From contig CAJINV010000010.1 of NCBI GenBank assembly GCA_905178155.1, positions 645,851 through 709,850 on the forward strand: 64,000 nt of DNA. The letters run 5' to 3'. Under the pieces are notes generated by a model, which searched no databases, was not told the DNA's origin, and saw nothing but the letters and a program-made list of their open reading frames with translations. Shown here one piece after another: positions 3,101 to 53,700 of this stretch (within the stretch, counting starts at the first letter, position 1; the number at the start of each line of letters is the position of its first letter). The translations under genes were made by a program, and so were the position numbers. Origin of the DNA: Amoebophrya sp. A120 (taxonomy: Eukaryota; Protista; Dinoflagellata).

Positions 3101-3547
3101 GAATCTGCGAGGTCTCTGCCATGCCTACCCTGCATGAGAAGCTCCCTTCCATCTTGGTCAAAAGTGGACAGCTTTTCGCACTCATGCAACACAGATTTTT
3201 GCATGCTTCAGATTTACCATGACAAGCTGCCACCTTCCAGACCCAGACACTTTTACATTTGATAGCGGGTCGACTAAATCGGAGTTCCCGCGCTTCTTCT
3301 TCAAAGAGCTTGATCGCGAACGGTTGGTCTTGCTGGTAGCAGTTGCTGCGGCCGTAGAGGATGCGGCTCCTGTAGGATCTTTATTGCCGTGGTCGTGTGT
3401 CGCTGCATGTGGAGGAACGAAGCCTTCTTCTAATTGTTCTGCTGCTGCGGTTTCGCTTGCTAGCCCGTCCGCCGGCAACCTTTCAATTGACCTCGCTTCC
3501 AACGCGTCTTCCATCGTGCTGAACGTGGTGCGGAACTTGCTTTTCAT
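157..3547 (-). CDS. Large low-complexity (Q/S/T-rich) hypothetical protein, split by TIR elements and running off the left edge; the 5' part may lie at 10135-10825
   Basis: ORFs 3182-3547, 2238-2942 and 74-2194 join in frame when elements 3004-3264 and 2157-2302 plus one DR are removed (VDPLLNAD..., AGTTTSKK...). Confidence 0.7.
2157..2302. mobile_element. Introner-like element, family D
   Basis: tatcctgtgcaaaag...ttttgcactgcata; DR ttgta/ttgta. Confidence 0.9.
3004..3264. mobile_element. Introner-like element, family A
   Basis: TIR tatcaagtgcaaaaatgtctgggtctg; DR gcgag/gcggg. Confidence 0.9.
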
Positions 3548-3688
3548 ACCACCGTAGTTGTTCTGCGCATCATGTAAAGATGTATAGTTCTAGTTGCGAG
3601 CTGAGGAGAGTTCGAGTCGAATATCCGAGAAGCGAGAACCGGATCCGTCAAAAACAGATTTGACAAACCGGATCCGTCAAATGCAAAT

Positions 3689-3955
3689 ATGACATTTCAA
3701 ATTTCACATTTGCACATTTCAATTTCACACTTTCAAACATTTCAATTTCACATTTTCAAATTTCAAGTTTTCAGATTTCAAGTTTTCAGATTTCAAGTTT
3801 TCAGATTTCAAGTTTTCAGATTTCAAGTTTTCAGATTGCAAGTTTTCAATTTTTCAAGTTTCACGTTTTCAAATTTCAAATTTTCAAGTTTCAAAATTTG
3901 GAGTTTCAGGTTTTCAACTTTCAAGTTTTCAAGTTTCAAACTTTCATATTTGAAA
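3689..3955. repeat. Minisatellite (tttcaagttttcaga)n and degenerate variants
   Basis: About five near-perfect 15-mers at ~3761-3850, embedded in tttca-rich degenerate copies. Confidence 0.9.
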
Positions 3956-4283
3956 TCTGCAGACTTGCGATCAGATCTCAGATCTCACGCCTCATGTCTC
4001 AGTCTTCAGATCTGAAATCTCAGAGATCAGATCTCGCATCCCAGATCTTGAGGCTCAGATCTCGAGTCTCAGATCTCGAGCCCAGTCTCAGATCTCGAGT
4101 CTCAGATCTCGAGTCTCATCGCTCGGGTCTCAGATCTCGAATCCCAGACCTCGAATCTCAGACCACGAATCTCAGCCCTCGAGCCTCTCGAACCAACCTC
4201 GGAGCCCGACTCCCAGATCTCAGGCATCACGTCGCAAACGCCACCCCTCGGACTTCAGAGCTCAGGTCTTACATCTCAGACCT
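3956..4283. repeat. Heptamer satellite (agatctc/gagtctc)n
   Basis: Repeated agatctc / cgagtctc units with ~7-bp period. Confidence 0.85.
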
Positions 4284-4390
4284 CAAAGAAAAGCGAAAAC
4301 ACACCGGGGCCAGATTGCCAGCCACGACCTGCTGGCCAGCCTGTGACCAGGGTGGCAGATTCTTTCTCGGCGCGTGTTCTTCGGATGGCG

Positions 4391-4496
4391 CACAACAAAA
4401 GGGCAAACAGAGCGGGTCAGTGGTTTCTTTTGGTTTCTTTGTTCACAACAAAAGGGCAAACAGAGCGGGTCAGTGGTTTCTTTTGGTTTCTTTGTT
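4391..4496. repeat. Perfect 53-bp tandem duplication
   Basis: cacaacaaaagggcaaacagagcgggtcagtggtttcttttggtttctttgtt at 4391-4443 and 4444-4496. Confidence 0.9.
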
Positions 4497-4762
4497 TGTG
4501 TGGTTCGGCCTATTGTGTTAGGGACCTGGTGCAGCACCAAGCAAATACATCAAGAGAAGCAAGACAAAAGACCGGGGGGGGTATCAGACAAATAAAATAA
4601 AGGCGAAGGCTTTGGGAGTACTTCCTTCAAGGGGTGGGAATGAAAAGCATGCGCCTGGCCCGGGGGCAAAATACCAGGAAAGGGCTAGCAGTGAAGCACT
4701 AAAAAAGAAATAAAATAGTAAATTGATCGGCATACTCATAAGGGCGCAGAGGGGTAGGGAAC

Positions 4763-7700
4763 TTACGGGAACCATCTAACGCGCGGACGCGGTAGTCCAA
4801 ACGTCGCAAGGTCGACGTAGTTCTCTAACGTCGTGACCCCGTCCTCGCGATAAAGCGCGACCTGGCTGCGACTTCGCGGCCGGCTGAGCATGGTGAAGGC
4901 GATCCCATGGAGTACCCAGATGGTTGCGACGGAAATCACGTAAAGGATACCGAGGGCAACCGTGCGCCCCTGGAAGCTGTGGGTCGTGCTGACCACGCTG
5001 GCACGGACCCCGATCGCCAAAACCAACCAGCGCGCGCCCGGATCCGCGTCCACGTCTTCTTCCCAGGTACTGTTGAGCGGCACTTCTTCCTCCATCCCTG
5101 TGTCGTCAAATCGCACAAGGACGAAAGTGTCGCCGAACCCGCGAAGGATGCCGCGGGAGTTGGTCGCGTATGTGCGTTGCAATAATCTGAGTGGGCCCGT
5201 AAGGGCGACGCGCTCACCGATGAAGAGCTCCAGAGCCTCCGACCGTGTCGATTCTTCGGTCTCGAAGCCTTCAAGCAATGGATTCTGCATGTTGAGCATC
5301 AGGGGTTTGTATGTGCGGCACGCGACCCGCAGGGAACGCAAAGCCCGCGCGCGCACCCCGAGAACCCGGCGGCGTTCGCGATGGGTGCCGACAACGATCT
5401 CCACTTTGTTCAGGGCATCGACGCCGCCACCAATGCGAACACGCTCCCCAAGCCATTGGTAGGAGTATTCCGCGTCCGCAGCGCCGACCCGCCCGAAGGT
5501 GGTGAGGTCGATCTCCTTCGTCTCGCCCGTTCGAATAGGGTCCAGCTCTTCACTCCATTCCTGTGTGTCGTAGCGCGGGTTGTGTTTCCCGTTGTCGATG
5601 TAGATGTAGCGCACGCGTGGGAGGGTCTCCACATACCGGGCGAACGGCGTCGGCGATCCAGCAAGAAGGGCGTCCGTGGCTTTTGTGAGTCGCAACACGC
5701 TGGGAAGCTGGTGGGTGTCGCCGAGGAGCCCGACCTTCTTCGCGCCCCAGGGCTTCGCGCGTGCCCGGCCCGACGCCTTGCCAAGGGCCTGCATCCAAAG
5801 AAGCGTCTGATCGCCGACCTTTTTCTCCCCAGTCTCGAACCACTCAGCGTTACCCATGGCGTCCTCATCGATCAGAACAATGTCGGCCGCGCCGGCAAGT
5901 GCTTGCGCCTCTTCCCCCCAAGCCTTGCTGTCCTCGAGCTCGATCGTCATCCCGAGGCCGTCGTGCATTGTCTTGCCGCCGATGATTGTGGCGGCCTGCC
6001 CGGTGGAGGCGAGCAGAATAATGACAAGGCCCCGAAGGTAGGAGGCGAGCTCGATTGCACGAATCAGAATGGCCTTGCCGGCCCCGGCAGCTTCGTCGCA
6101 TACAACAACGTCGGCGACCGAGTTAGGGGTCTCGGTGCCGCCGTCCATGAACTCATAGAAGGCTGCTTTCTGTCCGGGTGTCATCTCGATCGCGTTCGGG
6201 TCGGCACCATGGAGAAGGTTTGCGAACTCCCGCGCGTGTGCCTGGCGGTTTGCGCGGATGCGGGCGTGGTATGCGTCGACATAGTACTGCCGTCGCTCGC
6301 GGTCGGATCCAAAGGTCATCAGGTGGGTGGCCGCGTCCGGGCGGGTCTGGCGAATCGTGTGGCGGTCGATGCCTTCGCGCTCGAGCCGCTGCGCGATGAC
6401 CTTCGCCGGGATTCCATGTTCGTCCTCAAGCCACTGCCATGCAATCTGCCGGGCCTCCGCCTGGAAGTTTGTGAAGTACTTCACGAAAAGCGTCAGCGGG
6501 CCGGTCTGCGGCCGCAATTGGGTGAGTTCATCCAAAAAGTTTTGAAAAACAAACCCCGCAAGGTGGGCGGGGTAATTCCAGCGCCGCATGCTTGCTGCGG
6601 GGTCGTCAAAATACTCCTCCACGTCAGCCCTTTCAACAAGATGCAGCCCACAAAGCCACAGCAGATAGGTGTCCCCGAAATTTTTGCCGCGGATGTGGGC
6701 GATCTCCCGAAAGGGGTCGCGTTTTGCGAGGATGCGCCTGGCTTTCTCGAGCGCGCCCGCCGTGTTGCCGCGAATTTCCTTCCGGTGTTCCTCTAAGAAC
6801 TGGACGAACTCCCGAAGCGTCTGCAATTCCAAGACAACGCCGAACCGCGTCTCCCCGCGAAACTCTTCCTCGTGGATCGCTGGGTGCCAGTGCATGAAAG
6901 GCGCCAGAAGCCGCGCGTCTGCCGACGGGATAGTGCCGAGGGAGAACCGTTCAAGCGACCAAGAGCGATATTTTTCCGGCCGGTCGAGCCAGTTGCTGAC
7001 GTAATCCGTCGGCCCTGCCGCCATACGGAAACAACGCGCGGAGTCGATGTGGTACTCATTTACGAGAATCGGACGGAGAAGGCCGTCGGGGACGTGGACC
7101 CCGAGCCGGTTGAAGCCATAGAGCTCGGCAGCCGCATCCGACGCGGGAAGCACCTGGGCCGCGTGAAGCGTCTCGACCTCATTACAGCGCCCGTCCTGCT
7201 CGAACATTTGCCAGCTTCCCTGCTCCGTGTTTTTCCCGAGGGGCTTCATCTTCTTAATCGGGTAGGTGATCACGTAGCGGACTTTGTTGGCCCCCCCGAC
7301 CCCTGTTGCGTGGCAATGCGCACGAAACCGGCAGAAGGTCTTTTTGTCGATACCGACGAACATCACATCGGCGGGGTCGGTCTCGATCTGCAAGAAGCCC
7401 CGGTCGTCGAGATATGTGACCGCAACGACCACGGCAGGAATGCGCCGGAGGCACTGCGTCTGGCCGGGTCGCAAGCAGGCCGCTGTGTGGTTATGGTAGA
7501 AAACTTTGTCGGCGGTTTCTTTCCAAGCGGGGCAGTCTTGGGGAATGAAGTCGCGGCTGCGGGTAATGAATTCATCGAAATCCTGCTCGAGCAAAAGCGG
7601 AAGCAGGAACCACGTCAGAGTGTGCTGGTGCGGTCTGCCGCTGCTGGGCTGGGCCTCTTTTCCCCAAGTTACTGCGGCGCAGGGGCCGTAGATTTGCTCC

Positions 7701-9325
7701 AGGCTGTCCGTGTGCAGCCACATCTTCGCTTGAAAGGCGCGCACGCTTGCAGCGGGTTCGTCGAGAACGCCACAGGTGCCCCAGGGTCTGCGCGAAGCCT
7801 CGGCGACAAGTTCGCGCGTGTCGTCTGCTTGCGTCGCGGTCGTCATGAGGTCCGCAGCGCCGAGCTTGCGCATGATGGCGAACGCCTTGCCCCGCTGTTC
7901 CGCGACTTCTTCTAACGAGCCGGGCACGTTGGCGGGCAGGCGGCGGGGAAGCTTTCCCGGGTGGCTTTTTTGGTACGCTGCCGAATAGGCGAGGATGAGG
8001 CGCTGCCGCTGATTGAGGGAAAAGCGCAGGAGCAGCTCCTGGTGGAGGTCATGGAGCACGGGGCTCATCATTTCCGGGCGTGCGAAATACTGGCGGAGAA
8101 AGCACTTCGTAGTCACGTTGGCCGGCAAAGTCAGGCCGTTCACGAAAAGCAGCGGAAACTCGACGCCGAGCAACTGCTCCCACAACCGCGTCAGGTCCTC
8201 ATGCTTTTGGTGGATCTTCTTCGCATCCATGTCGTGCTGCTCCTTCGTGGGGAAAAAAATCTCGGACCCTTCGCGCATGCGTCCGGCGTTTACGCGAATG
8301 GTCACCCCACAAACCCCCCCGGCGTCAAGCTCAAGCCCGAGCCCGGTAATTGGCCCCGGGTCGTTCAGGTAGCGCTGAAAATTTACATGGCTGTAGACCG
8401 GGTGCCCGCGGTTCCTCCGGGTCAGGAGCCCGAGCATGTCGGCGGCTGCCTTTTTTTCCTGCGCCCGCGGCGACTTCCCTCCTGCCGCCACCGTCAGAGC
8501 CACTTTGATCCCGAGGCAGTCCGCTAAGTAGTTGGGGCACCATAGGCCAGTCCCGAACGAGAACAACTGGGAGCCCAAGGGAAACGACTCGGCGCGCCGG
8601 CCCATGTACTTCCGCTCCTTCTTGGTGTGCCTCCGCGCGTCCCGTGGTTCATATTGGTAGCGCATCATAGCGACGTTGGAATTTGCTCGCGCGTACAGGG
8701 CGGAGGCCTTCGGAACCGTCTCCCACTCATGGATGTATTCCTCCCGGCCATCGGTCAACCTTTCCCAAAAGTCCGAGGAAAGCGCCTCCGCGCCGTCGTT
8801 GCAGAGGATGCAGGTCTTCTGCTGCTCTGTTGCAGGGTCCCACGTTGCCTCCGTATTTTCGTAAACATACACGCCACACCACTTGCACGGGGCTGCTTCT
8901 ACTTCCATCTCTCCCCAAACCTCGGGCGGGTGGGGGAGAGCGTACTCCGGCGCAGTGAAGACGTTGGCCTTGATGGCGCACGGCCGGCAAAGGTTGTCCA
9001 GTTGGGTCGGGGCCTGTGGTGCTGCATCACCAGCAAGCGCCTCGAACACTTCGAGGACAGGAAAAAAACCGCTGTGGGTTAATGGCGGCACAGGGCGCGG
9101 CCACTTCTGGCTCTTCTGAATTTCCTCGCACCGAAGGGCATTGATGCGATCGGGATAATTGAAGTACCCGGCTGGGTATCGGGTCTGGCACTTATCGCAG
9201 GCGGTGCTAAATCCATTGCACACGCGGCAGCAGTCGGAGTCGTTCTCAACGTCCCGGCGGCGAAAATGACAGACCTCACACCGGTCGGGCCAGGCGATGC
9301 GCTCACTGAGTTCCAGCTTCGCCAT
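4763..9325 (-). CDS. Helitron-like RepHel: Cys-rich N-terminus, HUH-Y2 Rep domain, PIF1-family SF1B helicase (~1520 aa, intronless)
   Basis: Rep motifs DLMTTAT, KEAQPSSGRPHQHTLTW (HUH) and RYVITYPIK (YxxxY). Helicase motifs AAGAGKAIL, LIDEDAMG, LLGDTHQLPSV, STTHSFQGRTV and FTMLSRPRS. Start placed at MAKLELS. Confidence 0.9.
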   Translation of the reverse strand: MAKLELSERIAWPDRCEVCHFRRRDVENDSDCCRVCNGFSTACDKCQTRYPAGYFNYPDRINALRCEEIQKSQKWPRPVPPLTHSGFFPVLEVFEALAGDAAPQAPTQLDNLCRPCAIKANVFTAPEYALPHPPEVWGEMEVEAAPCKWCGVYVYENTEATWDPATEQQKTCILCNDGAEALSSDFWERLTDGREEYIHEWETVPKASALYARANSNVAMMRYQYEPRDARRHTKKERKYMGRRAESFPLGSQLFSFGTGLWCPNYLADCLGIKVALTVAAGGKSPRAQEKKAAADMLGLLTRRNRGHPVYSHVNFQRYLNDPGPITGLGLELDAGGVCGVTIRVNAGRMREGSEIFFPTKEQHDMDAKKIHQKHEDLTRLWEQLLGVEFPLLFVNGLTLPANVTTKCFLRQYFARPEMMSPVLHDLHQELLLRFSLNQRQRLILAYSAAYQKSHPGKLPRRLPANVPGSLEEVAEQRGKAFAIMRKLGAADLMTTATQADDTRELVAEASRRPWGTCGVLDEPAASVRAFQAKMWLHTDSLEQIYGPCAAVTWGKEAQPSSGRPHQHTLTWFLLPLLLEQDFDEFITRSRDFIPQDCPAWKETADKVFYHNHTAACLRPGQTQCLRRIPAVVVAVTYLDDRGFLQIETDPADVMFVGIDKKTFCRFRAHCHATGVGGANKVRYVITYPIKKMKPLGKNTEQGSWQMFEQDGRCNEVETLHAAQVLPASDAAAELYGFNRLGVHVPDGLLRPILVNEYHIDSARCFRMAAGPTDYVSNWLDRPEKYRSWSLERFSLGTIPSADARLLAPFMHWHPAIHEEEFRGETRFGVVLELQTLREFVQFLEEHRKEIRGNTAGALEKARRILAKRDPFREIAHIRGKNFGDTYLLWLCGLHLVERADVEEYFDDPAASMRRWNYPAHLAGFVFQNFLDELTQLRPQTGPLTLFVKYFTNFQAEARQIAWQWLEDEHGIPAKVIAQRLEREGIDRHTIRQTRPDAATHLMTFGSDRERRQYYVDAYHARIRANRQAHAREFANLLHGADPNAIEMTPGQKAAFYEFMDGGTETPNSVADVVVCDEAAGAGKAILIRAIELASYLRGLVIILLASTGQAATIIGGKTMHDGLGMTIELEDSKAWGEEAQALAGAADIVLIDEDAMGNAEWFETGEKKVGDQTLLWMQALGKASGRARAKPWGAKKVGLLGDTHQLPSVLRLTKATDALLAGSPTPFARYVETLPRVRYIYIDNGKHNPRYDTQEWSEELDPIRTGETKEIDLTTFGRVGAADAEYSYQWLGERVRIGGGVDALNKVEIVVGTHRERRRVLGVRARALRSLRVACRTYKPLMLNMQNPLLEGFETEESTRSEALELFIGERVALTGPLRLLQRTYATNSRGILRGFGDTFVLVRFDDTGMEEEVPLNSTWEEDVDADPGARWLVLAIGVRASVVSTTHSFQGRTVALGILYVISVATIWVLHGIAFTMLSRPRSRSQVALYREDGVTTLENYVDLATFGLPRPRVRWFP

Positions 9326-10134
9326 TTTCTTTTTTGGGTGCGCCACTAAAAAGCGAAAGGACTCGAGGGTATAATTTACGTGGGGGGGTGGCTTCCAAAA
9401 ATGCGCAATCCTTACGGGCGGGCGAAAAAAAATACGACAGGGGTAGACCAAAGCGCGGGGCTATTTGCTGACCTATGTAAGGCTTCGGGCGTTTCTCTTG
9501 GGAGCGCGTTTCTCTTCTTACTCTTTGTCCGATAAGGTTACTCCCATGCGGGCTGATGTGGTGCATAGCATGCGCCTAATCGCCGTCGCGCCTTTTCTCT
9601 TCTTTAAGTGTGTGAACGGGGTCGCGCTTACATCTATCACGCACCACGCCCCCCTGTTTCTATTTTGGATCATTCGCGTTGGATCTTGGGGCCCGGGCTG
9701 GGCGCGTTGCGGCGCCCTCTCTCCGACGGCCGCGGCAGGCTTCTTCGCCTGCGTGGCCGGGACAAGAGCGGCCGGATTTGCGTTGCTGCGTTCCTCGCAG
9801 GGAGGCACCTGCCGCCATGGCCTTTGTGGCGTCACGGGGCAGATGGTGGGCCATGCAAATACTACGACAAACTTTCCGCCCCCCCCCGCCATGCCTCTTC
9901 TGCCACCGCCCTCGCATCCTCTGCCTGGATGCGGGGTGGCGACCGTTGTGGCTCGGCTGGGCGCGCCTTCTGTGATCTTACTGGCGCTGCTGGCCTGCCT
10001 GGCCCCTGCCCTTGCGGTCTTCTCGACCTGCTTGGGCAGGGCCTGGGCGGCCGGCAGTTTGTTACTGCGCTATTTCCTTCATGCATGTTCTCGCTTCTCG
10101 TTTATCAAAGAACTGTGGCGACAAGAGTTGCATA

Positions 10135-10825
10135 CTTGTAATTCGCGCTGTTGTTGATCCCCTGATTGGTCGTAGACGTAGTCGTAGAAGTGCTGCTCCC
10201 GTTATAATTTTTCGACGCATTTATCGGCGGCAGCAACTGATGCGAAGAGGAATCGGTTTTCTTCGCACCAGACGCGAAAGAGTTGGACCGCAATCGCAAA
10301 CCGGAGCTGGGAAAAGCACCGGAATAAGTTGTGGAGAATGCTGCGGTGCTACTATTCGGTTGCTGGTCGAAAGGGTCGAGAAGCTGTCCTCCTCCGGAAG
10401 TTCTAGTGACCAAGTTAATGCCGCCTCTATTGCCAGCAGTTCCTGCTTGCCCTCGCGTCTGTTGACCGGCAATACCTGTAGTCGACGGCAGACCGAAGGA
10501 GTGACTGCGAAGTCTCGTGGTAGTGCTCGCGCCGATTCGACCACCCGGAGCGCCGCCCCCTCCGAAGTGTTCTCCATTCGCCCCGCCAGTCGTAGTCGCG
10601 CCGACATTGTACCGCTTTTTGTGTTGGAGTTTGTACTGGCTCAGCGTGCGCGACAGCGCGGGGGCACCGGAGGAATTCGCATTGCGGTTCATCGGATGGA
10701 GGCGGGGGTGTGATTCCTTGCGCCAATGGTGGTACGGCTATCGAACTCGTCGTGGAGTTGGTTCCAAAGCCAGTATGGCCGACTTGTTGCTGCACATGTG
10801 TAATGACTTTATTCTCAAGTTGCAC
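10135..10825 (-). CDS. Low-complexity hypothetical exon(s), probably the 5' part of the gene at 157-3547
   Basis: G/S/T-rich ORF 10105-10692 of similar composition. It joins the 3547 frame if 3562-10134 plus one DR is removed (NYKYGGMK). Confidence 0.45.
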
Positions 10826-11268
10826 TCACTACTTCTACTTCTGGTTCTATCGGCGGCTATTTTGGTCAAAGTCAAAAAAAACGAACTAGTCGGTCACTCA
10901 CTCAAGCCTCAATAAGTGTTTCTTTTTCTTTGATTGTCGTGGTTCTGGCTCTCTAAACTTGACTGTTCTGAGTACAACAACTCATAGCAGCACTAAAACA
11001 CGACTCACGACTAAAACAACTACCCACTTCACATTCACTTTTCTCTCTCGCTCGCAATCAATCTCGGTGTCAGCTTCGACAAAAAAAACTCGACTTCTAC
11101 ACTCGACGAAATAAATAGAGAAGACGGAGCCAGCTCCAGAGAGCCGTCCGCGATCAAAGTTGAAACACCCGCCGCCACAAGCCGTGCGCACGAATCATCG
11201 TCATTCTAAAACCAGGATGGAAGGAATCCAAGCCCGGCGAGGAGACATGACCCTCAGGGACTCTTTGA

Positions 11269-36554: not shown

Positions 36555-37764
36555 TATGGGATCGTTTCAACGATTAAAATTAAAAAAATTAATTTTTATT
36601 TATTCAAGAGGTCATACAAAATGAAAATCATCAGAGTGCGACATGGAAACTGCCGTCGTCGCGGGCCTCCGAGGTGAACGTCTCCGGATTGTGTTTTGTT
36701 TATGGTAATGAAATAGCTAGACACGTCCCAACTTCAGCTAGTTAAAATGGTATGTAGTTGAACAAGGTTTAAGAATGCAAAGGAAGCAGGAAGCTTGGCT
36801 CCGTCTTTGCGGCCCACAAGCTGGGCGTCTGCGTGGTCCCTCGCTCTCCGGCTCGTCTGGGGCCCCGTCACGTAGCAGCGACGCTATGCTGGTTTCGACC
36901 GGTGGAGTTTATGGGGCAATGTGATGGCTTTCGAATACATCCCAAGAGGAAGCTGGTGCGGCAAAGCCTGAAAATGTGTGGCGTTGTAGTATTGAGATCT
37001 CGCACCTCAACGGACGGAGCAACTTTCGTGGTTTTGGTCATCAGTTTCAGAGTGGGAGTTCCTGAGTTCCTTTTAGAGCTGGAGGATCGCGATTAATTAG
37101 ACGCCCAGAGACGTCCAAGAAGACGTCTATTTTCCGCGATATGGAAATGGATTGACTAAGTGGGAATAGCCAAAGTTAATGACGTCCCTGGGGACGTCTC
37201 TGGGAGACGTCCCGCAAGCTCATTTTTGGCATCAAAATGAGGCGCGTCAAAAGTTGACGCTTTTCCTTACGAAAAAGCTACTCTTTAGGATGCTTTTGCC
37301 CAACATATCCGCAGCGTCGCCTCCTCCACCGTTCTGCTCGCGATACTCCTGCAGGGCCTCACTGGGCTCCGTGTCGGTTGGCGTCGCCTTCTCCGGGCCC
37401 AAGATATCGGCCAGCAGCTCTTCTCTGCGCGCGTGGATCCCCCCCATGTATTTCCGGCGTCCGGAGGGGGCGCGGAGGAGGGCCCGGATCGCCCTGGCGA
37501 CGTTCTCCATACCAAGGCGCTTGGTATTAGAACTGCTACTGCCGCGATGACAGACTCCAGCTTCCATATCATTTCAACTAGCTTAAGTTGGGACGTGTCT
37601 AGTTATTTCATTACCATGAACAAAACACAAGCCGGAGATGTTCACCTGGGAGGCCCGCGACGGCGGCAGTTCCCGCATCACCTTCTGATGATTTTCATTT
37701 TATATAACCCCTTGAATTGCAAAAAATTAATTTTTTTTATTTTAATCGTTGAAACGATCCCATA
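36555..37764. mobile_element. 1.21-kb intergenic element with ~200-bp TIRs and a 5-bp TSD (tataa)
   Basis: 36555-~36757 is the inverted copy of ~37560-37764. Ends are tatggg...cccata, with tataa on both sides. Confidence 0.9.
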
Positions 37765-43167: not shown

Positions 43168-45367
43168 TCAATGGAAGCTGCAAAAGTTAAAGTACAAAGT
43201 TTTCTTATGTAATGCAAAAGCATCGTACTAGTAGTAATCGCATTACAAATTTGCTCAGCATGACAAATGGAATTTCTCATGCTGATTTACCTTGAAAAAA
43301 AGATTTGTCATGCACAAATGCGATTACTACGAGTACGATACTTTTGCACAGGATATTTCTCCAGACGATACGAAGATCAACCAGTTCCCGCCTGTGATCC
43401 ACGGTTTCTGTTTTTCGATCTATCCTGAGTGAAAACGCCCCCACCCCATAGTGAAGATGGGCAATCTGCTACACAAATCAACCAGCATTGGCTGTTGCGC
43501 ACGACAAGTTTGGCCCCGCAGTGTCATCCTGTTTAGCTAGTTATAGTAGCATTACAGATCTAGCATATTATGCTGATTGGAGCATCACAAGTTCCAAACC
43601 ACGACTAGAAAATGCTTCTCATGTTGGGGCTCTGCATGAGAAGCATTTTGAGCATGCAGATCTGCATGACGACTATAGGGTTGGAACGTTTTTACTCAGG
43701 ATACGATCCCGATCGCCTTCGCCGCTACCTCGTACTCCTGTCCGCTATGGATGTGTCAGGATCGAAATCGTCAAAATTGAACAAATAGTTTGTCATGCAT
43801 AAAACCGATACCAGTCGGAAGCCCACTTATCAGGCGGCGCATGACAAATTTTCCGAGCATCGGAATCCAATTTGTCATGCTGTTCGAGCACAGAAGACTG
43901 CTTTTGTCATGCTAGTTTAGTAGCTCCATTTCAAACCCTAAACAGGCCAACAATCGGCCTCACTTGCCATCCCGGCAAGACAGGCACTTCATGCCTTGCA
44001 TTTTGTGCATCGCAAACTATTTCAACTTTGACGATTTCAATCCTGACGCTTCCATATCCGCGCTCCCGGTAGTACGCCGCCTGCAGCTCCGCTGTGACCA
44101 GATCGGCGTGAAAGGGCTCTATCTTCTTTCCAATCTCCTCTTCCGCCGACATATCTCCCGCAGTGGACCCATTTTTCGCATATGAACTGCAAAAGTTAAA
44201 GTATCGTACTAGTATAAATTGCATTACAAATTAGCGCAGCATTACGAATTGAATTTGTAATGCTGATTTTCGTTGAGAACGAAATTTGTAATGCATAAAT
44301 GCAATAATTACTACGAGTACGATGCTTCAGCATTGCATATCGCACTCCGCGCGGCGATTTTCTTCTCCGCGGCGGCGCGAATCGCGGCCAGAGCTTCCTG
44401 CGCCCCCGCAGCCGCACTTTCCGTGATTTTTACGTTGATGTCGCTCAGCGTTTTTTCGTATCCTGTGTAAAAACGTCCCCACCACAGAGTTGTGATGCAA
44501 ATGCGCAATGACAGGAGCATCTGTAATGCGCATACCCATGAGAGGCATTTCCAATCGAGTTTTGGCATTTGTGATGCTGTAAACAGCATGAGAAAGTGGT
44601 TTTATCACGCGGATTCCCTTGCTAACCAGCACAACGCTGCAGAGGAAAACTTATCATGCACAACTCCCAAAATTTGCAGATTTACCGACTTGACTATGGG
44701 GTGGGGACGTTTTTGCTCACCATATTTCGTACTCCGTCACCAGCGCCCGGGCCTTAGCCGCTGCCTTGGCGGCAGCTGCTTTCGCCTCCGCGCTTTCCTT
44801 TGCTACAGCGAGGGATCAAAATGAAAAGTCCCCCCTCCCCATATCGAACTGGAAATCTGTGATGCAGGATCTGTGTACACAAATCGGATTTGTCTTGCGG
44901 TAGAGGACTGCAGACAGATGCAAAGCCCGGAACGGGGTGGCTTGGGGTAGGTACTTAGCATGGCAGACGTCTGCCCTAGTAGCGTAGCAGCATTACAAAC
45001 CGCCTGCGAAATGCAGCGGAAGCCCTGGCTTTGCTCTCTTGCAAGACAGAATCGATTCGTGAGCACAAATCAGCATCACAAATTTTGAAAAGCACGCCTT
45101 TTCGATATGGGGAGGGGGGATTTTTCCTCACAATACGAGGTTTTTGGTCACCAGTTCCACGATCTGTTTCGCTTTTGCCTTGGCATTGCCGTTGTCTGCT
45201 GCGGTGGAGGAAATAGACGAGAAAAGTGACAAAGCCGAGGACGTCGGGAGGTTTGAAAGGTAGAAAAACCAAATCGCAAAATATCTGCAGACGATGGAGT
45301 GGATAAGAGGCGCGGCGGACGGTCTGCCACGCCGCTGCGCTACGTCGACAGTATTTCGTCCGGACAT
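43168..45367 (-). CDS. Ala-rich helical hypothetical protein split by six TIR elements
   Basis: Six successive excisions give one frame: VTKNLAVAKE, TEYEKTL, ARSAKNG, RERGQEY, AIGIEKQ, SSGETLYFNFCSFH*. Confidence 0.75.
43206..43355. mobile_element. Introner-like element, family D
   Basis: DR tttct/tttct. Confidence 0.9.
43421..43703. mobile_element. Introner-like element, family E
   Basis: TIR tatcctgagtgaaaacg; DR cgatc/cgatc. Confidence 0.9.
43746..44056. mobile_element. Introner-like element, family F
   Basis: TIR tatggatgtgtcaggatcgaaatcgtcaaa; DR tccgc/tccgc. Confidence 0.9.
44181..44339. mobile_element. Introner-like element, family D
   Basis: DR tcgca/tcgca. Confidence 0.9.
44459..44724. 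mobile_element. Introner-like element, family E
   Basis: DR tttcg/tttcg. Confidence 0.9.
44814..45135. mobile_element. Introner-like element, family G
   Basis: DR cgagg/cgagg. Confidence 0.9.
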
Positions 45368-46534: not shown

Positions 46535-49500
46535 TCACGCTGCCGTAGGGGCCACCTCCCCGTTGAGCATGCGATCGTCGGTCCAGTCAAAATAGCCGAC
46601 GCCTTTGCCGCCTTTCGCGAAGACTTTCACCGAATTGAAAACAAAATTGGTTCCGTAGTGCTCGGTGGGCATCAGCAATCCAACCTGGTCGTCCCATCCG
46701 GGGTAGATGCTTTTCGCATCCTTTTTCCCGTAATTCGCATCTTTCACCAGAGCATTGCACGCATCTATCCCCTGGTCGTTTCCGTTAGCCTGGAACTCGG
46801 TGCCGGCCCAGGACCCGCAAAAGGCAGTGTTGATGATGAAGGTTTGCGTGCGAAAGTGCTCGCTGGCTTCGCTGCAATGAGCCAACGGAAAGACCACGTA
46901 GGGCTTCAAACTTTGCAGCTTGGTCTCCCAGAACTCAGGTTGGGCGGACTCCTCCGCGCTGATGGCGTTGGCGTCTTTGCGAGGAATCCAGTAAAAATCC
47001 GTCTTGTCCTCCCCCAGCTTCATGATGTGAATGCCACCCTGCTCCTTGTTGAATTCGATCCCGTTCGGAATGCCCTTGGCCAGGACCCCGCAGCCGTCGT
47101 ACCCCTCGCAATTTCGCATTTTCAGGTACAGCGTCATGTAGTCGGGGCACTGGTTGTCCGGGAAGTACCAGTGCTGCTCGTTTGCTGGATCCGGTCTACA
47201 CTGCTCGTACACGTCGTCCCCTACCTCATCCTCGGTGGGATTCAGCCTGTTCGTTTTGGTCCGGAACATGTTGCAGTTCCCGACGCAAGGCTTCCCCTCA
47301 GGGCAAGCACCCTCGTCCCGTCGCCAGGGGCCAAACTCGGTGTGCAGGGTGGTGGGCTATCAAATTGAAAAGCGGGGCCCTAGCTGTACTACACAGAACT
47401 TGGTGGAAGCATTAGCATTTGTCTTTGTTGTATAATATCATGCCGAACCGACCGCGCAACCACTGCCGTCCAGGACTAGTGAGGGTCGTTCATGCGGCAA
47501 CGCTCTCGAAAAACCCCAACGCCACCCAGGACCAGCAATTAATTAAATTTCATTTTCTTTCTATTAGTCGCCGATGTAAACATGCCGATGCCGTCTTGAT
47601 GTCTTTTCAATGCAAGCAATTGATAAAGTTTTCACCCTGAAGAGCAAAAATTTGTGTTGCGAAATAGAGGCTCAACACCAGTGGAAACTGTTCATAACGA
47701 GGATGCTTCTCACGATTGAAAATTCTGGATCAGAAAAAGAACTCAACATAGTCGGTTCTGCCCTCCAACACGACAAAAGAATCTTCTCTTTTCGAAACTT
47801 CGCCACAGATATTAATTGAGTATTTCCACCTTCTGCGGGCGGGGCACTAGCACTTTTCAACAAGATATGATCATCTCCTTGTTGGGAAACCCGTGCACGT
47901 GCTCCATCATGTCAAACTCCCCCGACTCCGGCCAGTGAGCATGCCCAAACTGCCACCCGTCCTCGGCCCAATACCCCTGCCTCGGGACCCAAAACTCTTC
48001 CCCGATCGGCACGACCCCGCCCTTGTGCGCGGTCCAGTAAGCGGGCCACGAGCCATCGATCGCGGGCATGCGCTCCACGTCGACGACAAAAATCGAACCG
48101 TACGTGAAGCCAAACTTGCTGTGCATGCGAATTGCGTACCGGTTGCCATTTTCGTCGCTCCCTACGTCCGGGCTTTTGCGGTCATCGGGCGCCAAGGCCG
48201 GCCTGCCTTTCGCGAAGTCGATGCTCACCTTGTTGTCGTTGGTTTGCGTGATCAGGGTGTCTCTTCGGTTCCAGCCCTCCTGGTAGTTAACGGCCCCCTG
48301 TGTGGGGTCGCCGAGTCTGTCCCAGGGGACAAAACAGTCCAGGAAAGCGGCCCGATCGCTCCCCGGACAGTTTAGCGCCAACTGCAGCTGCGGTGACGCG
48401 GAGTTTTGTTCCTCGTTAGACACGTTTACTTCCTCGGACGGCTTTTCCTCGGAAACACTCAGCGGATCCGTTGGTGGCACTTCTGGAGCTGGATCCGTTG
48501 GTGGCACTTCTGGAGCTACGCTGATGACAGTGCACAACCCCCTCCCTCACTTGTCGGGCATGAGCAGCAATAGAAACACCACCAGACCTCAACCTCATGG
48601 AGCCTGTGCATGACAAGTTGTTCCTGCGCCGACTGAAGTACTTACTGTTCTGGCTACATCAAGAACTTCCGGGATTTGTCATGCCAACTGTGCCAAATGA
48701 ACGAAGAAACTGCAACTGGCTCTGGCTTCAGCATTTTGCATGACAAACAAGGGGGACGTCGAGTTGTGCAATCGGATAACGCGGGTCTGATTCCGGGCGC
48801 CGTTCTTGGTCGTCTCCTCGGCTTCCTCCGGCGCCTGGCAGTACTCACAGGCCGGCTCCTATCCTGAGAAAAAAGTGTTACAGTTGCACACTCTGATGGA
48901 AGACAAGCAAGACAGACGACCTCTGCCATGCAGGAAATGCTTGGCAGCCTCATTTCATTCGTGTTCTTTTCCCTTTAGACTCTGCGCATCACAGGTTGTT
49001 TTTGCCATGATGTCGAGCAACTTTGTGATGCAGAAATTCCAACAAATGTGTAACTGCAACACTTCATTTTTCCTGTGATAGCTCCACCGGATGACTGACG
49101 TCCCTGGTCCCCACAGGCTCCCCAGACCGCAGCTCGGTAGATGTTCTCGTAGCCCCAGCGGCGAGTTGCAGTATCCTGAGTAAAAGCGTCCCCACCCCAT
49201 AGTTCTTGTCATGCAGATTTGCAGTCACAGGAAGATTTGTAATGTGCATCCCCGTGAGAGGCACTTATTTCAGTCGTGTTTTGGACTTTGTAATGCTGTA
49301 AACAGGATGATTAGCTGGCTTTGTGATGCGGCTGCACTTGTGAAACTGCACCAAAATACAGAGAGGAACTTGTCATGCGCATACTCCCAAAACTTCTCGG
49401 CTTGTGTTGCGAGATCCCCGTCTTGAGTCTGGGGTCGTGGGGACGTTTTTACTCAGGATATGCAGCGACGAAGCTTTAACATTTTCTGCGGTGGACAGAG

Positions 49501-49630
49501 CCACATTTTTCCGCGCTGGTTGGGCAGCATTCCGCGCTGCAGGTTTCTTCAAAACCTTGAACGCTAGTGCCGGTGCTGGCCCACGATCAGCCCCTCCTAC
49601 GTAGAGGATTTGTAACAGGAACCGCTTCAT
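46535..49630 (-). CDS. GH16 (beta-1,3-glucanase/laminarinase-like) paralogue 1
   Basis: WPAYWT, WPESGEFDMMEH (ExDxxE) and QTFIINTAFCGSWAG; interrupted by four TIR elements. Confidence 0.85.
47358..47867. mobile_element. Long (510 bp) diverged introner-like element
   Basis: Ends tatcaaattgaaaagcg / cacttttcaacaagata; DR tgggc/tgatc; excision gives EMITTLH as in the paralogue. Confidence 0.8.
48523..48778. mobile_element. Diverged introner-like element
   Basis: TIR core tgcacaac; DR acgct/acgcg; excision is in frame. Confidence 0.75.
48860..49080. mobile_element. Introner-like element, family B
   Basis: DR gctcc/gctcc. Confidence 0.9.
49172..49460. mobile_element. Introner-like element, family E
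   Basis: DR tgcag/tgcag. Confidence 0.9.
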
Positions 49631-50763
49631 TTTTTTCCTGACCGCCGTTTTTTTGTGTGTGAAGAACAACTGACTTTTCGATGCGTTTTTCTGTTGTGTA
49701 AAAGACAGACTTTTACTCAGAGGTCGTCGTGTTCTCGTCTTTTCAGAAGATATCCCAGATTGTTATATGAATCGTTTGCTCGGCGCGCATATGTACTTAT
49801 TAACTATTCGGGGAGAACTTTCGGCGGGCACAGAAGATCCACGACTCGAGTGGTTGTCGGCAAAGCTGAGGAACTGTTGCTTGGAGTTTTCATCGGGAAA
49901 ACGAACAAGTGAAAAAATAAATACCTACGTATAGTACATAGGAATATCTAAACACCAAAGAGCGGAAATAGCCTGTTATGCCTTTACGGGGATTTCGGTT
50001 TTCCATCCCCATCGTGTTTTGCACGAAGATTTGGCGAGTCACAATTAAAACAGCCACGAGAGGTGGAGCGATTGGACGAAGCCTACGGCAAAGGAAGAGA
50101 CCTGCATTCAAATCTTGAACGACAACGATTTTGGTTGACGAATAACGATTTGCTGGACGGCCTGCCGGTGCAGCTGCAGGTGCAGGTTTCATTTCCCTAC
50201 AAAAAATTTCTTCGCAAACGAGGAAAAGCGATCTTCCACCGGCGCAACGGCGCCAGCATGTACGAGGGAACGAGGGTAATGAAATCACGATATGAAACGA
50301 CCTACTTCACTGCAATACAGCCTTGTATCGAAATAAATGCGAAGGTAAAGAAAAACGAAATAACAACAAAGTGGAGAATACTTCGGAAGACACAGGTCGG
50401 TGTTCCTGTAGCGCCCGGAAAATTTATTAAAAAATTTCTTGGATGTTGTTGATTTTTTCGTCGGCTACCAGATCAAGAACAAGCTTGGTTCTGTTAACTT
50501 CTTCTATACCAGTGCTAATAATTATTGCATCAGCTCCCTTCGCAAACAGGAATACATGAAGCGAACGAGCTATTGAAAAAGACTGCTTGTTGGGGGAATA
50601 GGGATTTTTTCTTTATTCACCCACGTCCTTTTCTGGCAGTAGCTGGCAGCGGTAGAAGAAAAACTACAGAAGAAGTATGCGGTGAGATGAACAAGGGCCA
50701 AACTAGCAGGTGGACGAGCTGCTCAAGTATCTTTATCGGCCCTTCAACAACACCTGTCTTCCC

Positions 50764-53700
50764 TCAGACCCCATCCGGAAATAACGCCGGATATTTGTCT
50801 TTCCAATCCCGCTGGGGCTCTTCGCTGCCATCAAGCATGCGGTCGTCCGCCCAGTGGTAGAAACTTTCGCCCAAACCACCCCCCTCGATTCTATCACACG
50901 GAAAATAACCAGAAGGGCTAGCGTACCAAATAAATGCCTGGATCGATACAATTACAACTGTATCGATACAACAAAACTTGCTCGAAATCGTCGCTCTTGC
51001 GACGTCACACTGTTTCTTTTTTCCAACATCTTCACCTTTCATGCGGACATAACCAACTCAACAATTCCCGCCTAAATCCTATCTTCACGATCTCCATCCT
51101 TGGGACTTCAGAATACAGTACGATAGTAGTACGCGCGGCTGATAGTTTTCGCGCAGAACAAGGCGACAAGATGACTTTCATGCACAATAAATTTCGAGTA
51201 CGTTTGTGCACGCCTGATAGATTACAATTACGTCAAGTATTGTACGCTAGCACCTTACGAAAAAATTGTTCCAATGCATAGGTCCACTTTTTCGAGAAGA
51301 TTTTGATCGAGTTGAAGAGGAAATTCGTCCCGATCCCCTGGTCTGGCTCCCCTTCCTCACTGTCCCACAAAACCTCCCCGAGGTCCGCAAATTTGCTCTC
51401 CTGGGTCTTATAGCCGTAGGCAGCGTCCTTCATCAAAGCATTGCAGTTCTCCCGCCACTTCGTGGCCTTCCAGTGTTCTCTTGCCTCATCTGTAGTGAGA
51501 TCTGACGGAACCGGGGGATGATCGTTCTCTCGAGGACCCCAGTTGTACGTAAACCCCGCCCACTCCCCGCAGAACGCCGTATTCAGGACCAGCGTCTGCG
51601 TGCGAAACAGTTGCTGCGCGTTGCAGTTTTTGTTTTTATTCACGGGAAACACCACGTAGGGGGTCAGGGGTCGGAGTTTTTCGGTCCAAAACCAGCCCTG
51701 CTTGGTTTTTTCCTCGGTGAAAACCTCTGGGTCCACGTCGTTTCGGGGTATGAAGTAAAACTTCTTCACTTCGTCTTCTTCTAATTGCATTAAATGGATT
51801 CCCCCCCGTTGCTTGTTAAATGGCACGCCGTTCGGCACGTCTCGGACGTACGCGCCGCAGCCCAGATTGCCGTAGCAGCTGGTCTCCTTCAGGAATATTG
51901 TGAGGAAAAATCTCCCCATATCGAAAAGGAATCTGTGATGCTGATTTGTGACCACAAATCAGCTTTGTCTTGCGCACAAGGCAAACGGCAGCCATGTGGC
52001 GCATGGTACAGTCAGTCTGTCATACGTTTGCGCCTATGTCTGACTTGTTTCTCATGCTCAGCTGCTAGCCGGACGCGTACTTACCCAAACGGGCTTAGAT
52101 TATGTCGACAAGATGAAGCTGTTGCTGCAATACAAAGGTCATTTGTTTACACAAATACAGCAACACAGGTTGTCTTTTGAGTATGGGGTGGGGGCTTTTC
52201 TCACTTTGATAAGAAACGTCGGGAGTTTACACCCTTCCGTCATGTTCCACAGCGCGTGGTGGTTTGCCTTGCACTCCTCGTTCGCGTCTGTTACTTCTTG
52301 AGAAGACGGCTCGGAATCCCCGAGAGTCCCTCCGCGGGAGGGCCACACCTGGCAGCTGTGGCTGTTGTAGCTGGTGGCGCCGCTGTGGACGGTGGTGATC
52401 ATTTCTGTGTTGACGAAGCCGTGCAGGTGCTATCAAATGCAAAAGTGTCTGGGTCTGGAAGATTATGAGACTTGCCATGCATGTTTCGCGTGGCCCAGGA
52501 TTGTGTGTGATGCATGCCCTACCATCACAGACTTTTAGAACCCTTCCTGATGCCTACTCCGCATGACAAACGCCCTCCCCGCGTGGCACAAACTGGACTC
52601 CTCTTGCTGGTCATGCAATACAGATCTTTTTAGAGTCCAAAGTTAGCATCACAAGTTCCAACCCTCCAGACCCAGACCCAGATCCATTTTTGCATTTGAT
52701 AGGTGCTCCATCATGTCGAATTCGCCCGATTCCGGCCACCCACTGTGGCCAAACCCGTCACCCGGCTGAAATCCGGTGTCCCACGCGAGCGGCACGATGC
52801 CGCCCTTGTGGGCCGTCCAGTAGGCCGACCAGCTGGCATCGATGGTCGGGATCCGCTCCACATCCACCACGAACAGCGAGCCTGCCCCAACCGCGTACTT
52901 GGTGTGCATGCGAATCGCGGGGCGATGGTTGTTCCAGTCGTCGTTCGCGTGCGTAGTGATCTTGCCCTTGTGAAAATCGACACTGACTTGTTTTTTCATC
53001 ACCGCATTTTCATCCGGATTGTCTCGCAGCGTAATCAGGTCGTCCTTCATCTCCCACCCTTTCTTGTAGTCCACGGCCCCGCCGGTGGGATCGCCGACTT
53101 TGTCCCACGGGACAAAACAGTCCAAAAACGCGTCTAGATCGTCGCCGGGGCAGCTGAGCGCCAACCGGTAGTTGGTGGAATCCGGATTTTCAAACGGCCA
53201 GGTGGTGGTAGAAGTCGTACTAGAGGTTGTGGATGTGGACAAGGTTGAATCTGCGCCGTTTGAATTTACCATCACGCACTCGAACGGGTACTGCCCGGGG
53301 TCGGAAATCCGGTCGGCCAATGGGAAAATTGACGCACGGCTACACACATCCACTTCTTCACTGGCAGCAGATGAAACGTCAGCAGCTTGTTGTGCGCCCT
53401 TTTTGCAGCAGGCCGCCTCGTACTGAGCATGCGCAGTGCCCGCCGCGGGCGTTGTCCCCTCGGGGTAGCAGGCCGCGCAGCTCCCCGGGGTGCCGTTGCA
53501 GCCGGGGAGGCAGGAGATGGCGGTCGGCGGGAGGGGTGTGGTGTCCGAGGCAAACAGGTTTTTCGTGAAGGCCTGCGGGTGTTTCTTGTTCAAAACCCAG
53601 GCCGGCAAAGCGACGCAAGAGTGGAAAGAAGTCTCGTTTCCACCGTACGCGAGCACTTCTGCCGGGACGGTCTGCTCGACCGGCAGCCCGGGGATGGTGA

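What the first reader, a model, noticed from the sequence alone, without database searches (positions are those of the whole stretch)
3622..10104. Rolling-circle (HUH-Rep/PIF1) ORF packaged between introner-type ends
Seen: the 6.48-kb unit starts tatccgagaagcgagaac and ends gttctcgcttctcgttta. That is a 16/18 inverted match with a perfect 14-bp core, and the flanks are tcgaa/tcaaa, the same geometry as the small elements. Inside is an intact, intronless ~1520-aa RepHel ORF. Known: Helitrons do not make TSDs, and Helitron2/Helentron types have only asymmetric subterminal IRs. Inference, three options: a Helitron nested inside a small TIR element; a TIR element carrying a Helitron as cargo; or, most novel, an autonomous HUH-helicase element functionally linked to the introner system.
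Basis: partly seen in the sequence, partly recalled or inferred. Interest (0 to 1): 0.85.

Follow-up and report, generated by a model that had tools for sequence, protein, structure and literature searches.

The report
Helitron-like transposon hidden as giant intron
An intact 6.56-kb rolling-circle (Helitron-like) transposon from a deeply diverged lineage interrupts the reading frame of a host gene and is likely spliced out of its RNA as one giant intron, and its inverted repeats likely lie about 40 bases inside its true ends, so it is probably not a Helitron packaged in a small introner.

Summary
The ORF (4763-9325, minus strand, 1520 aa) is a real, intact Rep-helicase: it has Pfam Helitron_like_N and PIF1 hits, HUH and two catalytic tyrosines, and its best structural match is Helraiser. 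The 14-bp inverted repeat is real and not chance. Public contigs of the same organism branch at 3583 and 10140, not at 3622/10104, and a second, near-identical copy sharing 3583-10140 reproduces them. So the repeats sit about 40 nt inside the unit, much as in HLE2/Helentron ends, and no target duplication over 2 bp abuts the inferred ends. Two probable RNA assemblies skip the unit (3588-10135; 3577-10139) at non-GT-AG joints that keep the host frame open. The transposase belongs to a small family (two Amoebophrya proteins, a few metagenomic ones) that falls outside the HLE2-motif group and has an unusual GKA Walker A. Against the simple reading: the TAT start plus 4/5 flanking repeat matches the window's introners (about 2 in 10,000 by chance), and the second copy is inferred, not read. 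No link to introner mobilisation was found. Verdict: new variant of a known kind.

The parts
3583..10140 (-). Inferred mobile unit (about 6.56 kb): the stretch shared with an inferred second near-identical copy. 5' end likely 10139-10140, 3' end likely 3583-3587.
   Evidence: X1 contigs break at 30-mers 3583-3612 and 10111-10140; loose ends lie behind 10140; graph simulation; in-frame candidate ends
4763..9325 (-). RepHel transposase ORF, 1520 aa, intronless and stop-free; GC 0.613 against 0.524 in a host ORF
8203..9325 (-). Cys-rich N-terminal region conserved in the family; no Pfam match, including DUF6570
7616..7963 (-). Pfam Helitron_like_N region, with the HUH motif (His566, His568 at 7622-7630)
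7262..7276 (-). Rep motif 3 with two tyrosines (Tyr684, Tyr688)
5669..6172 (-). PIF1 helicase core; Walker A at 6071-6094 keeps the lysine but ends GKA instead of GKS/T
10087..10100 (-). 5' arm of the 14-bp inverted repeat (extends to 17/19 over 10087-10105), 40 nt inside the inferred end
3626..3639 (-). 3' arm of the 14-bp inverted repeat, 39-43 nt inside the inferred end
10107..10140 (-). Outer 5' module of 34 nt ending in a T3 tract next to the repeat; also present, with 2 differences and an unrelated interior, at another locus
   Evidence: X8 record 15 and an X1 loose end
3611..3621 (-). 11-nt palindrome (5-bp stem) between the 3' repeat arm and the 3' end; a CTAG lies at 3590-3593. Folding of 3580-3640 is no better than shuffles (z 0.20).
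3637..3694 (.). 29-nt tandem duplication forming hairpins just inside the 3' repeat arm (3575-3700 folds at z -3.16)
3695..4496 (.). Minisatellite arrays in the 3' non-coding part: 15-nt unit (3695-3956), 7/14-nt unit (3971-4187), perfect 53-nt duplication (4391-4496)
3588..10135 (-). Stretch skipped in contig 8 of probable-RNA run X4 (6548 nt; GT..AA or, shifted, AA..AG); both cut sites lie inside the inferred element
   Evidence: table 5; frame test
3577..10139 (-). Stretch skipped in contig 9 of probable-RNA run X3 (6563 nt), bounded by a 5-nt direct repeat at 3573-3577 / 10137-10141
   Evidence: table 8 (contiguous record coordinates)
3617..10109 (.).
10136..10838 (-). Upstream host exon (low-complexity coding frame, no Pfam match)
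3264..3587 (-). Downstream host exon, followed by a 266-nt TAT-type element that X3 contig 9 also lacks

Best explanation
The window holds an intact Rep-helicase gene inside a roughly 6.56-kb unit (about 3583-10140) that is likely an autonomous, recently copied Helitron-like transposon, likely inserted into a host coding exon and likely removed from the mRNA as one non-canonical intron. Shown: the ORF, its HUH/Y2 and PIF1 motifs, the 14-bp inverted repeat, the contig breaks, and two in-frame joints in probable RNA contigs. Inferred from the contig graph: a second copy about 99.9% alike elsewhere, sharing 3583-10140. Inferred from Helitron biology: RepHel nicks the 5' end, unwinds one strand, ends near the 3' palindrome and pastes a copy without a target duplication. 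The 14-bp repeats are read as HLE2-like subterminal repeats: the 3' arm is 39-43 nt from the 3' end, with a palindrome in between. The 5' arm sits beside a T tract that is probably the original 5' end. The extra 34-nt outer module is probably a second 5' terminus gained by inserting into a related element. The host tolerates the insertion because cut sites just inside both element ends restore the frame, leaving a few element bases in the mRNA.
For: Protein: Pfam. A family profile hits Helraiser 7lcc at E 1.3e-31 over both Rep and helicase. The AlphaFold model (mean pLDDT 85.3) has 7lcc as best Foldseek match (E 1.4e-29). Ends: X1 gives contigs 3583-3789, 3808-4420 and 4467-10140 and 11 of 17 records at 99%+. 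Two X1 contigs have loose ends behind 10140 with mutually unlike flanks. The main contig has depth 41.2 with 8 other letters, against 22.7 and 23.3 for two diverged RepHel contigs and 22.3-26.3 for the flanks. The depth left over at the 53-nt duplication (8400) fits two copies (7636-9628), not one (3818-4814). None of the 6 differences inside the ORF makes a stop. Geometry: PMC4067079 gives 12-15-bp subTIRs, 2-4 nt from the 5' and 38-60 nt from the 3' end, with a palindrome 8-35 nt from the 3' end. PMC5148889 describes doubled 5' termini from self-insertion. Splicing: X4 joins 3587 to 10136 and X3 joins 3576 to 10140, each with 0 stops over 288-293 codons; a GT-AG cut gives 5 stops. X3's contig also lacks the neighbouring 266-nt element, as a spliced RNA would.
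Against: The second copy was never read. Its left flank contig is not among the rows shown (16 of 23 loose ends and 25 of 41 pieces were displayed). The simulation imposes the branch points, and their direction at the left end rests on path and depth bookkeeping. The tool warns that contig depth is no copy number, and two contigs inside the unit have depths of only 32.3 and 29.7. The TAT start with a 4/5 flanking repeat around the inverted repeat arises in only 393 of 2,000,000 random pairs (a post hoc test). A 34-nt extension beyond the 5' repeat is not the usual HLE2 spacing, and the 3' palindrome is not a significant fold. The transposase lacks the HLE2 motif-2 arginine and DUF6570 and falls outside the HLE2-motif group. 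The Walker A lacks the Ser/Thr after the lysine, so helicase activity is not assured. X3 and X4 are only guessed to be RNA, come from one study, are contigs rather than reads, and give different joints at short direct repeats, as reverse-transcriptase template switching could.
Confidence: 0.65

Rival explanations
1. Old composite. A TAT-type TIR element carrying the RepHel gene once inserted, with a 5-bp duplication, into a 70-bp element. Its right end has since decayed, and the whole composite now moves by the outer ends and is spliced as one intron.
For: TAT start, outer-arm pairing and 4/5 flanking repeat match the window's small elements, at 393 of 2,000,000 by chance. The outer module exists at another locus without the RepHel.
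Against: That other locus shares only 10107-10140, i.e. 3 of the 5 supposed duplicated bases. No joint to the left outer part is listed for it although it has 335 further letters. Three mismatches in 9 nt would need far more time than the 8 differences in 5674 nt between copies. A RepHel would have had to lose its own ends and land in a cognate element.
Confidence: 0.2
2. One reading: a TIR/TSD-bounded autonomous HUH-helicase element, 3622-10104, that is the missing mobiliser of the TAT-type introners.
For: The same end resemblance. PMC7789003 reports that no transposase was found in one of its two strains (passages).
Against: The graph has no branch at 3622 or 10104. The repeat core is found in no small element of the window. 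Removing this unit does not restore the host frame. Helitrons make no target duplication (PMC11417382), whereas the small elements have 5-bp duplications.
Confidence: 0.05
3. One reading: an ordinary Helitron nested inside a small TIR element, with its own ends internal to the repeats.
For: Hairpins and minisatellites just inside the left repeat could hide a 3' end.
Against: No contig break or listed loose end between 3640 and 10086 marks an internal boundary, other than those the tandem repeats explain. No empty small element with this repeat was seen.
Confidence: 0.04
4. The extra graph paths come from something other than transposition of this unit, such as short exact repeats at both ends, a collapsed allele or an assembly quirk. 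The element is single-copy and its ends are unknown.
For: The left flank contig was not displayed. Inner contig depths of 29.7 and 32.3 are below twofold.
Against: Independent short repeats would need two extra exact records at each end, but the count leaves room for only two in all. The 8 differences and the depth excess are confined to the unit.
Confidence: 0.06

Closest known systems
HLE2 (Helitron2 / Helentron) ends, as in PMC4067079, PMC5148889 and PMC11417382
   Same: RepHel transposase; 12-15-bp subterminal inverted repeats, the 3' arm about 40 nt from the end with a short palindrome beyond it; T tract beside the 5' arm; internal minisatellites; no clear target duplication; size like FoHeli1 (about 6 kb).
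   Different: A 34-nt module lies beyond the 5' repeat. There is no motif-2 arginine, no DUF6570 and no endonuclease domain. The Rep domain falls outside the HLE2-motif group (95/92 and 99/96 support). The target dinucleotide is not resolved.
HLE1 (canonical Helitron; Helraiser, PDB 7lcc)
   Same: Same Rep-Y2 plus PIF1 architecture and best structural match; a CTAG lies 7 nt inside the furthest inferred 3' end.
   Different: No 5'-TC at this locus, CTAG is not followed by T, and there is no 16-20-nt palindrome about 11 nt from the end. It has subterminal repeats. Motif 2 lacks RGLPH, and Walker A is GKA. Exclusion from the HLE1-motif group is strong in one tree (98/96) and weak in another (78/47).
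Helitron-derived introners in PMC12130899 (Suillus fam5/6, Nemania fam1, Polarella fam15)
   Same: A rolling-circle element that is removed as an intron.
   Different: Those are multi-copy families with mostly GT/GC-AG sites. This one is an intact autonomous-type element with non-GT-AG joints. None of the 18 'helitron' places in that paper's family table is an Amoebophrya row.
Amoebophrya introner elements (PMC7789003)
   Same: Non-canonical intron with short direct repeats at the joints; the window is full of TAT-starting TIR elements like those described.
   Different: 6.5 kb and coding; its inverted repeat is not at the spliced ends; no 5-bp duplication at the inferred ends.
Unplaced RepHel lineages: HLE Paramecium (PMC13085455), the Symbiodinium intermediate (PMC8788227), HELIANO's unclassified HLEs
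   Same: Transposases from alveolates or unnamed hosts that fall outside or at the base of HLE1 and HLE2.
   Different: None of their sequences was available here, so kinship is untested.

Membership tests
Helitron-like elements (RepHel) | HUH Rep domain with two histidines and two tyrosines | tested here: met
   His566/His568 and Tyr684/Tyr688, aligned to Helraiser
Helitron-like elements (RepHel) | C-terminal PIF1 helicase in the same ORF | tested here: met
   Pfam PIF1 E 1.2e-9; Foldseek Pif1 matches. Walker A ends GKA in 5 of 5 family members that have it.
Helitron-like elements (RepHel) | Dispersed copies with sharp ends and no target duplication | tested here: inconclusive
   Second copy inferred from the graph. 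Candidate ends that need at most 5 chance-shared bases in all show direct repeats of 0-2 nt. No empty site was read.
Helitron-like elements (RepHel) | Rolling-circle transposition with a circular intermediate | not testable with these tools
   Needs a transposition assay or a joined-end PCR; no head-to-tail joint is listed for X1 or X8.
HLE1 (canonical Helitron) | 5'-TC, 3'-CTRR and A^T target | tested here: not met
   No in-frame candidate combines them; the CTAG at 3590-3593 is followed by A.
HLE1 (canonical Helitron) | Motif 2 with RGLPH | tested here: not met
   P0001 has SSGRPHQH; relatives have RGRPH or RGTPH (diagnostic from PMC4067079).
HLE1 (canonical Helitron) | Transposase inside the HLE1 clade | tested here: inconclusive
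   Outside at 98/96; unresolved at 78/47 when 4 long or unplaced rows are left out. Groups were labelled by motif, not from curated references.
HLE2 (Helitron2/Helentron) | 12-15-bp subterminal inverted repeat, 3' arm 38-60 nt from the end, palindrome 8-35 nt from the end | tested here: met
   14 bp; 39-43 nt; 24-28 nt. Rests on the inferred 3' end.
HLE2 (Helitron2/Helentron) | 5' repeat 2-4 nt from the 5' end; insertion in T^T or T^C | tested here: inconclusive
   A T tract lies 1-2 nt from the extended repeat, but the shared unit runs 34 nt further. T^T (10140/3587) and T^C (10139/3583) are both possible in-frame readings.
HLE2 (Helitron2/Helentron) | Motif-2 arginine/serine signature, DUF6570, membership of the HLE2 clade | tested here: not met
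Helentron | Fused AP endonuclease domain | tested here: not met
   No such Pfam hit at E up to 1; the ORF ends just after the helicase.
TAT-type TIR introners of this genome | TAT...ATA termini with a 5-bp duplication at the true ends of the mobile unit | tested here: not met
   TAT on one arm only, 4/5 flanks, and both lie 36-39 nt inside the inferred ends.
Introner (intron-generating element) | Element removed from host mRNA with the frame restored | tested here: met
   Two contigs from runs guessed to be RNA, one study, 0 stops; not shown at read level.
Introner (intron-generating element) | Several copies that each form an intron in different genes | not testable with these tools
   The second copy's locus could not be fetched; no genome is held.

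The most novel reading that the evidence does not exclude
This is the first member of a third, syndinian lineage of rolling-circle elements that live as autonomous introns. Its TAT-starting subterminal repeats with a 5-bp flanking repeat are a true relic of shared ancestry with the genome's TAT-type introners, so HUH-helicase elements gave rise to, or help move, introners whose transposase has not been found.
Probability: 0.07. Interest if true: 0.85.

Novelty: new variant of a known kind. Interest (0 to 1): 0.55.

Why it matters
If true, a full-length, apparently recently copied transposon can sit in a coding exon and be silenced at the RNA level by the host's loose, non-GT-AG splicing. That widens the introner idea in these parasites from short TIR elements to an autonomous rolling-circle element, and gives a defined 6.5-kb substrate for asking how such joints are chosen. 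The transposase marks a small, deeply diverged RepHel family with HLE2-like ends but no HLE2 protein signatures and a family-wide GKA Walker A, which bears on how Helitron classes split. It does not solve what moves the TAT-type introners. Helitron-derived introns and subterminal repeats are each already known, so the surprise is moderate.

Tried and rejected
No genome is held for this window, so copies could not be collected directly.

Scans for related loci found nothing: metagenome contigs with alignment A3 (88 pattern matches, 0 confirmed) and with P0004 (69, 0), and viral contigs (66, 0). The ends of relatives are therefore unread.

No listed holder is on record as RNA. X3 and X4 show no long piece on the RepHel ORF, which says nothing either way about expression. 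Raw-read run X10 covered only a small element at under 95% identity and none of the exons, so it was of no use. Run X9 holds 5 identical internal pieces of 151-209 nt at depth 2.5-2.9 and no flank; that is too thin to interpret.

A reassigned genetic code was considered because one flank frame read well through stops. It was dropped: long host ORFs are open under the standard code and the RNA joints keep a stop-free frame.

My first idea of a 4-bp TATC duplication was rejected: it leaves 4 stops, and the window's elements use 5-bp duplications. The idea that the unit sits in a pre-existing short host intron was rejected because both X4 cut sites lie within the stretch shared with the second copy.

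A single-sequence fold was useless (pLDDT 34.2). A single-sequence PDB search gave only weak helicase hits. The protein atlas gave no answer for the N-terminal region. A search with P0028 named no close relative (3 hits).

The helicase tree (44 of 50 rows, 6 dropped because my Walker A/B pattern failed) is weak: the family is apart at 93 SH-aLRT, long branches meet, and P0061 was labelled HLE2 without a motif-2 basis. It is not used for placement.

Four look-ups of earlier findings returned nothing. PubMed 36543167, on dinoflagellate introners, is not held.
Full report
1. The observation. The quoted ends are present. The inverted repeat has a perfect 14-bp core at 3626-3639 and 10087-10100, and these are the only 2 exact matches in the window (9 matches up to 3 mismatches, 7.98 expected). 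A stop-free ORF of 1520 aa runs 9325-4763. The window is crowded with small TAT...ATA elements: of 27 inverted pairs found, 14 have perfect and 4 have 4/5 five-base flanking repeats. Here only the left arm starts with TAT and the flanks match at 4 of 5. The host is inferred to be an Amoebophrya-type syndinian: the two closest proteins are EukProt Amoebophrya sp. AT5.2 entries, and PMC7789003 describes TAT-starting repeats with 3-5-nt direct repeats in such genomes (section 11). I do not assign a strain.

2. The protein. It has Pfam Helitron_like_N and PIF1 hits. The HUH histidines and both tyrosines are intact. A four-sequence family profile hits Helraiser at E 1.3e-31. A model of residues 380-1520 from a 43-row alignment (mean pLDDT 85.3) has the Helraiser structure as best match. 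Among 1.84 billion representatives, 70 score E up to 0.001, 16 up to 1e-10 and 8 up to 1e-30, so the close family is small. All 5 members with the region end Walker A in GKA; of the 44 rows, 38 have GKS/T and 1 has GKG. In a 26-row Rep tree the family and three unnamed proteins form a third branch (99/97) beside groups I labelled by motif 2 as HLE1 (98/96) and HLE2 (95/92). With 4 long or unplaced rows left out, the family stays outside HLE2 (99/96), but its separation from HLE1 is weak (78/47). The labels follow the diagnostics in PMC4067079; only one reference row carries a source name. There is no DUF6570, the HLE2 marker in PMC11417382, and no endonuclease domain.

3. Where the unit ends. 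No genome is held and scans for related loci were empty, so I used public contigs. Run X1 holds 0.95 of the sampled words and may be the window's own source, so it is not independent. Its contigs break at 3583/3612 and 10111/10140; 17 records were laid, 11 at 99%+ and 8 only partly. The simulation imposes the branch points. The right branch is seen directly as loose ends behind 10140. The left is inferred from path and depth, because 7 of 23 loose ends and 16 of 41 pieces were not displayed. Depth supports two copies: 41.2 against 22.7 and 23.3 for two diverged RepHel contigs, and 8400 left over at the 53-nt duplication against 3818-4814 for one copy and 7636-9628 for two. Two inner contigs are lower (32.3, 29.7), and the tool warns that depth is not copy number. 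The main contig differs from the window at 8 of 5674 letters; the 6 in the ORF give 2 silent and 4 missense changes and no stop. A further locus shares only 10107-10140, with 2 differences (X8 record 15).

4. What the ends look like. Read on the ORF strand, the 3' repeat arm is 39-43 nt from the end with an 11-nt palindrome between. The 5' arm sits next to a T tract, with a 34-nt module beyond. The first two match the ranges given for Helentron-type ends in PMC4067079. The extra module resembles the doubled 5' termini that PMC5148889 attributes to insertion into a related element; that step is inference. The palindrome is not a significant fold (z 0.20). The exact ends cannot be fixed: T^C (10139/3583), T^A (10140/3584) and T^T (10140/3587) all give an in-frame empty site, with direct repeats of 0-1 nt. 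Against a purely HLE2-like reading, the TAT-plus-5-bp dressing of the repeat arises in 393 of 2,000,000 random pairs. The test is post hoc, and each 5-bp flank has another explanation (palindrome arm, T tract), but I cannot exclude an old composite.

5. The unit as an intron. Contig 8 of X4 joins 3587 to 10136. Contig 9 of X3 joins 3576 to 10140 and also lacks the next small element (read from contiguous record coordinates). Both keep the host frame free of stops. Both X4 cut sites lie inside the stretch shared with the second copy, so the element itself appears to supply them and the insertion was probably exonic. X3 and X4 are guessed RNA from two samples of one study, and joints at short repeats can be RT artefacts. 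The host gene has no Pfam match in the two frames tested.

6. Mechanism. Shown: sections 1 and 2, the contig breaks, and the two joints. Inferred: the second copy, subterminal status of the repeats, exonic insertion, and splicing. From established Helitron biology (PMC11417382, PMC5148889, passages): nicking, unwinding and copy-out without a target duplication. Confidence 0.65. Rivals: old composite 0.20, no real second copy 0.06, introner mobiliser 0.05, Helitron nested in a small TIR element 0.04.

7. Novelty. Helitron-derived introners are in print. PMC12130899 lists them (passages), and its supplementary file 8 has 18 'helitron' places, all read, none in an Amoebophrya row. I read 19 of its 118 Amoebophrya places; files 13 and 14 were not searched and may bear on this. 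Four library searches listed no paper describing a Helitron in Amoebophrya. In one search only 20 of 105 papers were listed, and none of them contains the word. PMC7789003 (listing) and PMC12005148 (passages) have 0 occurrences. PubMed 36543167 was not held. Third RepHel lineages are reported in PMC13085455 (passages) and PMC8788227 (passages); their sequences were not compared. All papers were seen as passages or named sections, none in full. It works like a Helitron with HLE2-like ends, fails the protein tests for HLE2 and the end tests for HLE1, and is filed as a new variant of Helitron-like element. Interest 0.55.

Noticed in passing
window 2157-55921, many places: Several families of 150-320-bp elements, plus one of about 1.2 kb, share TAT...ATA termini and 5-bp duplications (14 perfect, 4 at 4/5 among 27 pairs), which suggests one cut-and-paste superfamily.
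   Followed up: partly
window 36555-37764: A 1210-bp element with very long, nearly perfect inverted arms and a perfect 5-bp duplication.
   Followed up: no
window 49172-54794 and 51903-55170: Long runs of inverted similarity between small elements a few kb apart, and nested insertions around 43206-45120.
   Followed up: no
window 57000-58616 (-): A 538-aa intronless, GC-rich ORF whose sequence looks to me like a glycoside hydrolase family 16 protein (recalled motif, not tested).
   Followed up: no
run X1, records of 6196 and 5308 nt: Two further diverged RepHel-like contigs, collinear with the element, at single-copy depth in the same organism.
   Followed up: partly
window 6071-6094 and proteins P0002, P0004, P0005, P0006: Walker A reads (D/N)E-x-AG(A/S)GKA across a family only 36-45% alike, losing the first Gly and the Ser/Thr after the Lys; unexplained.
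   Followed up: partly
protein P0005: This relative has a long N-terminal extension with what looks like a 2A-type peptide and a C-terminal OTU-like region (both recalled motifs; Pfam did not report them).
   Followed up: no
window 3708-3742, 3973-4005, 9659-9692: Short 33-35-nt stretches of the element match other loci and probable transcripts at 86-91%; possibly captured fragments or low-complexity chance.
   Followed up: no
run X9 (estuary metagenome): Five internal pieces identical to the element, and no host flank, at depth 2.5-2.9.
   Followed up: no
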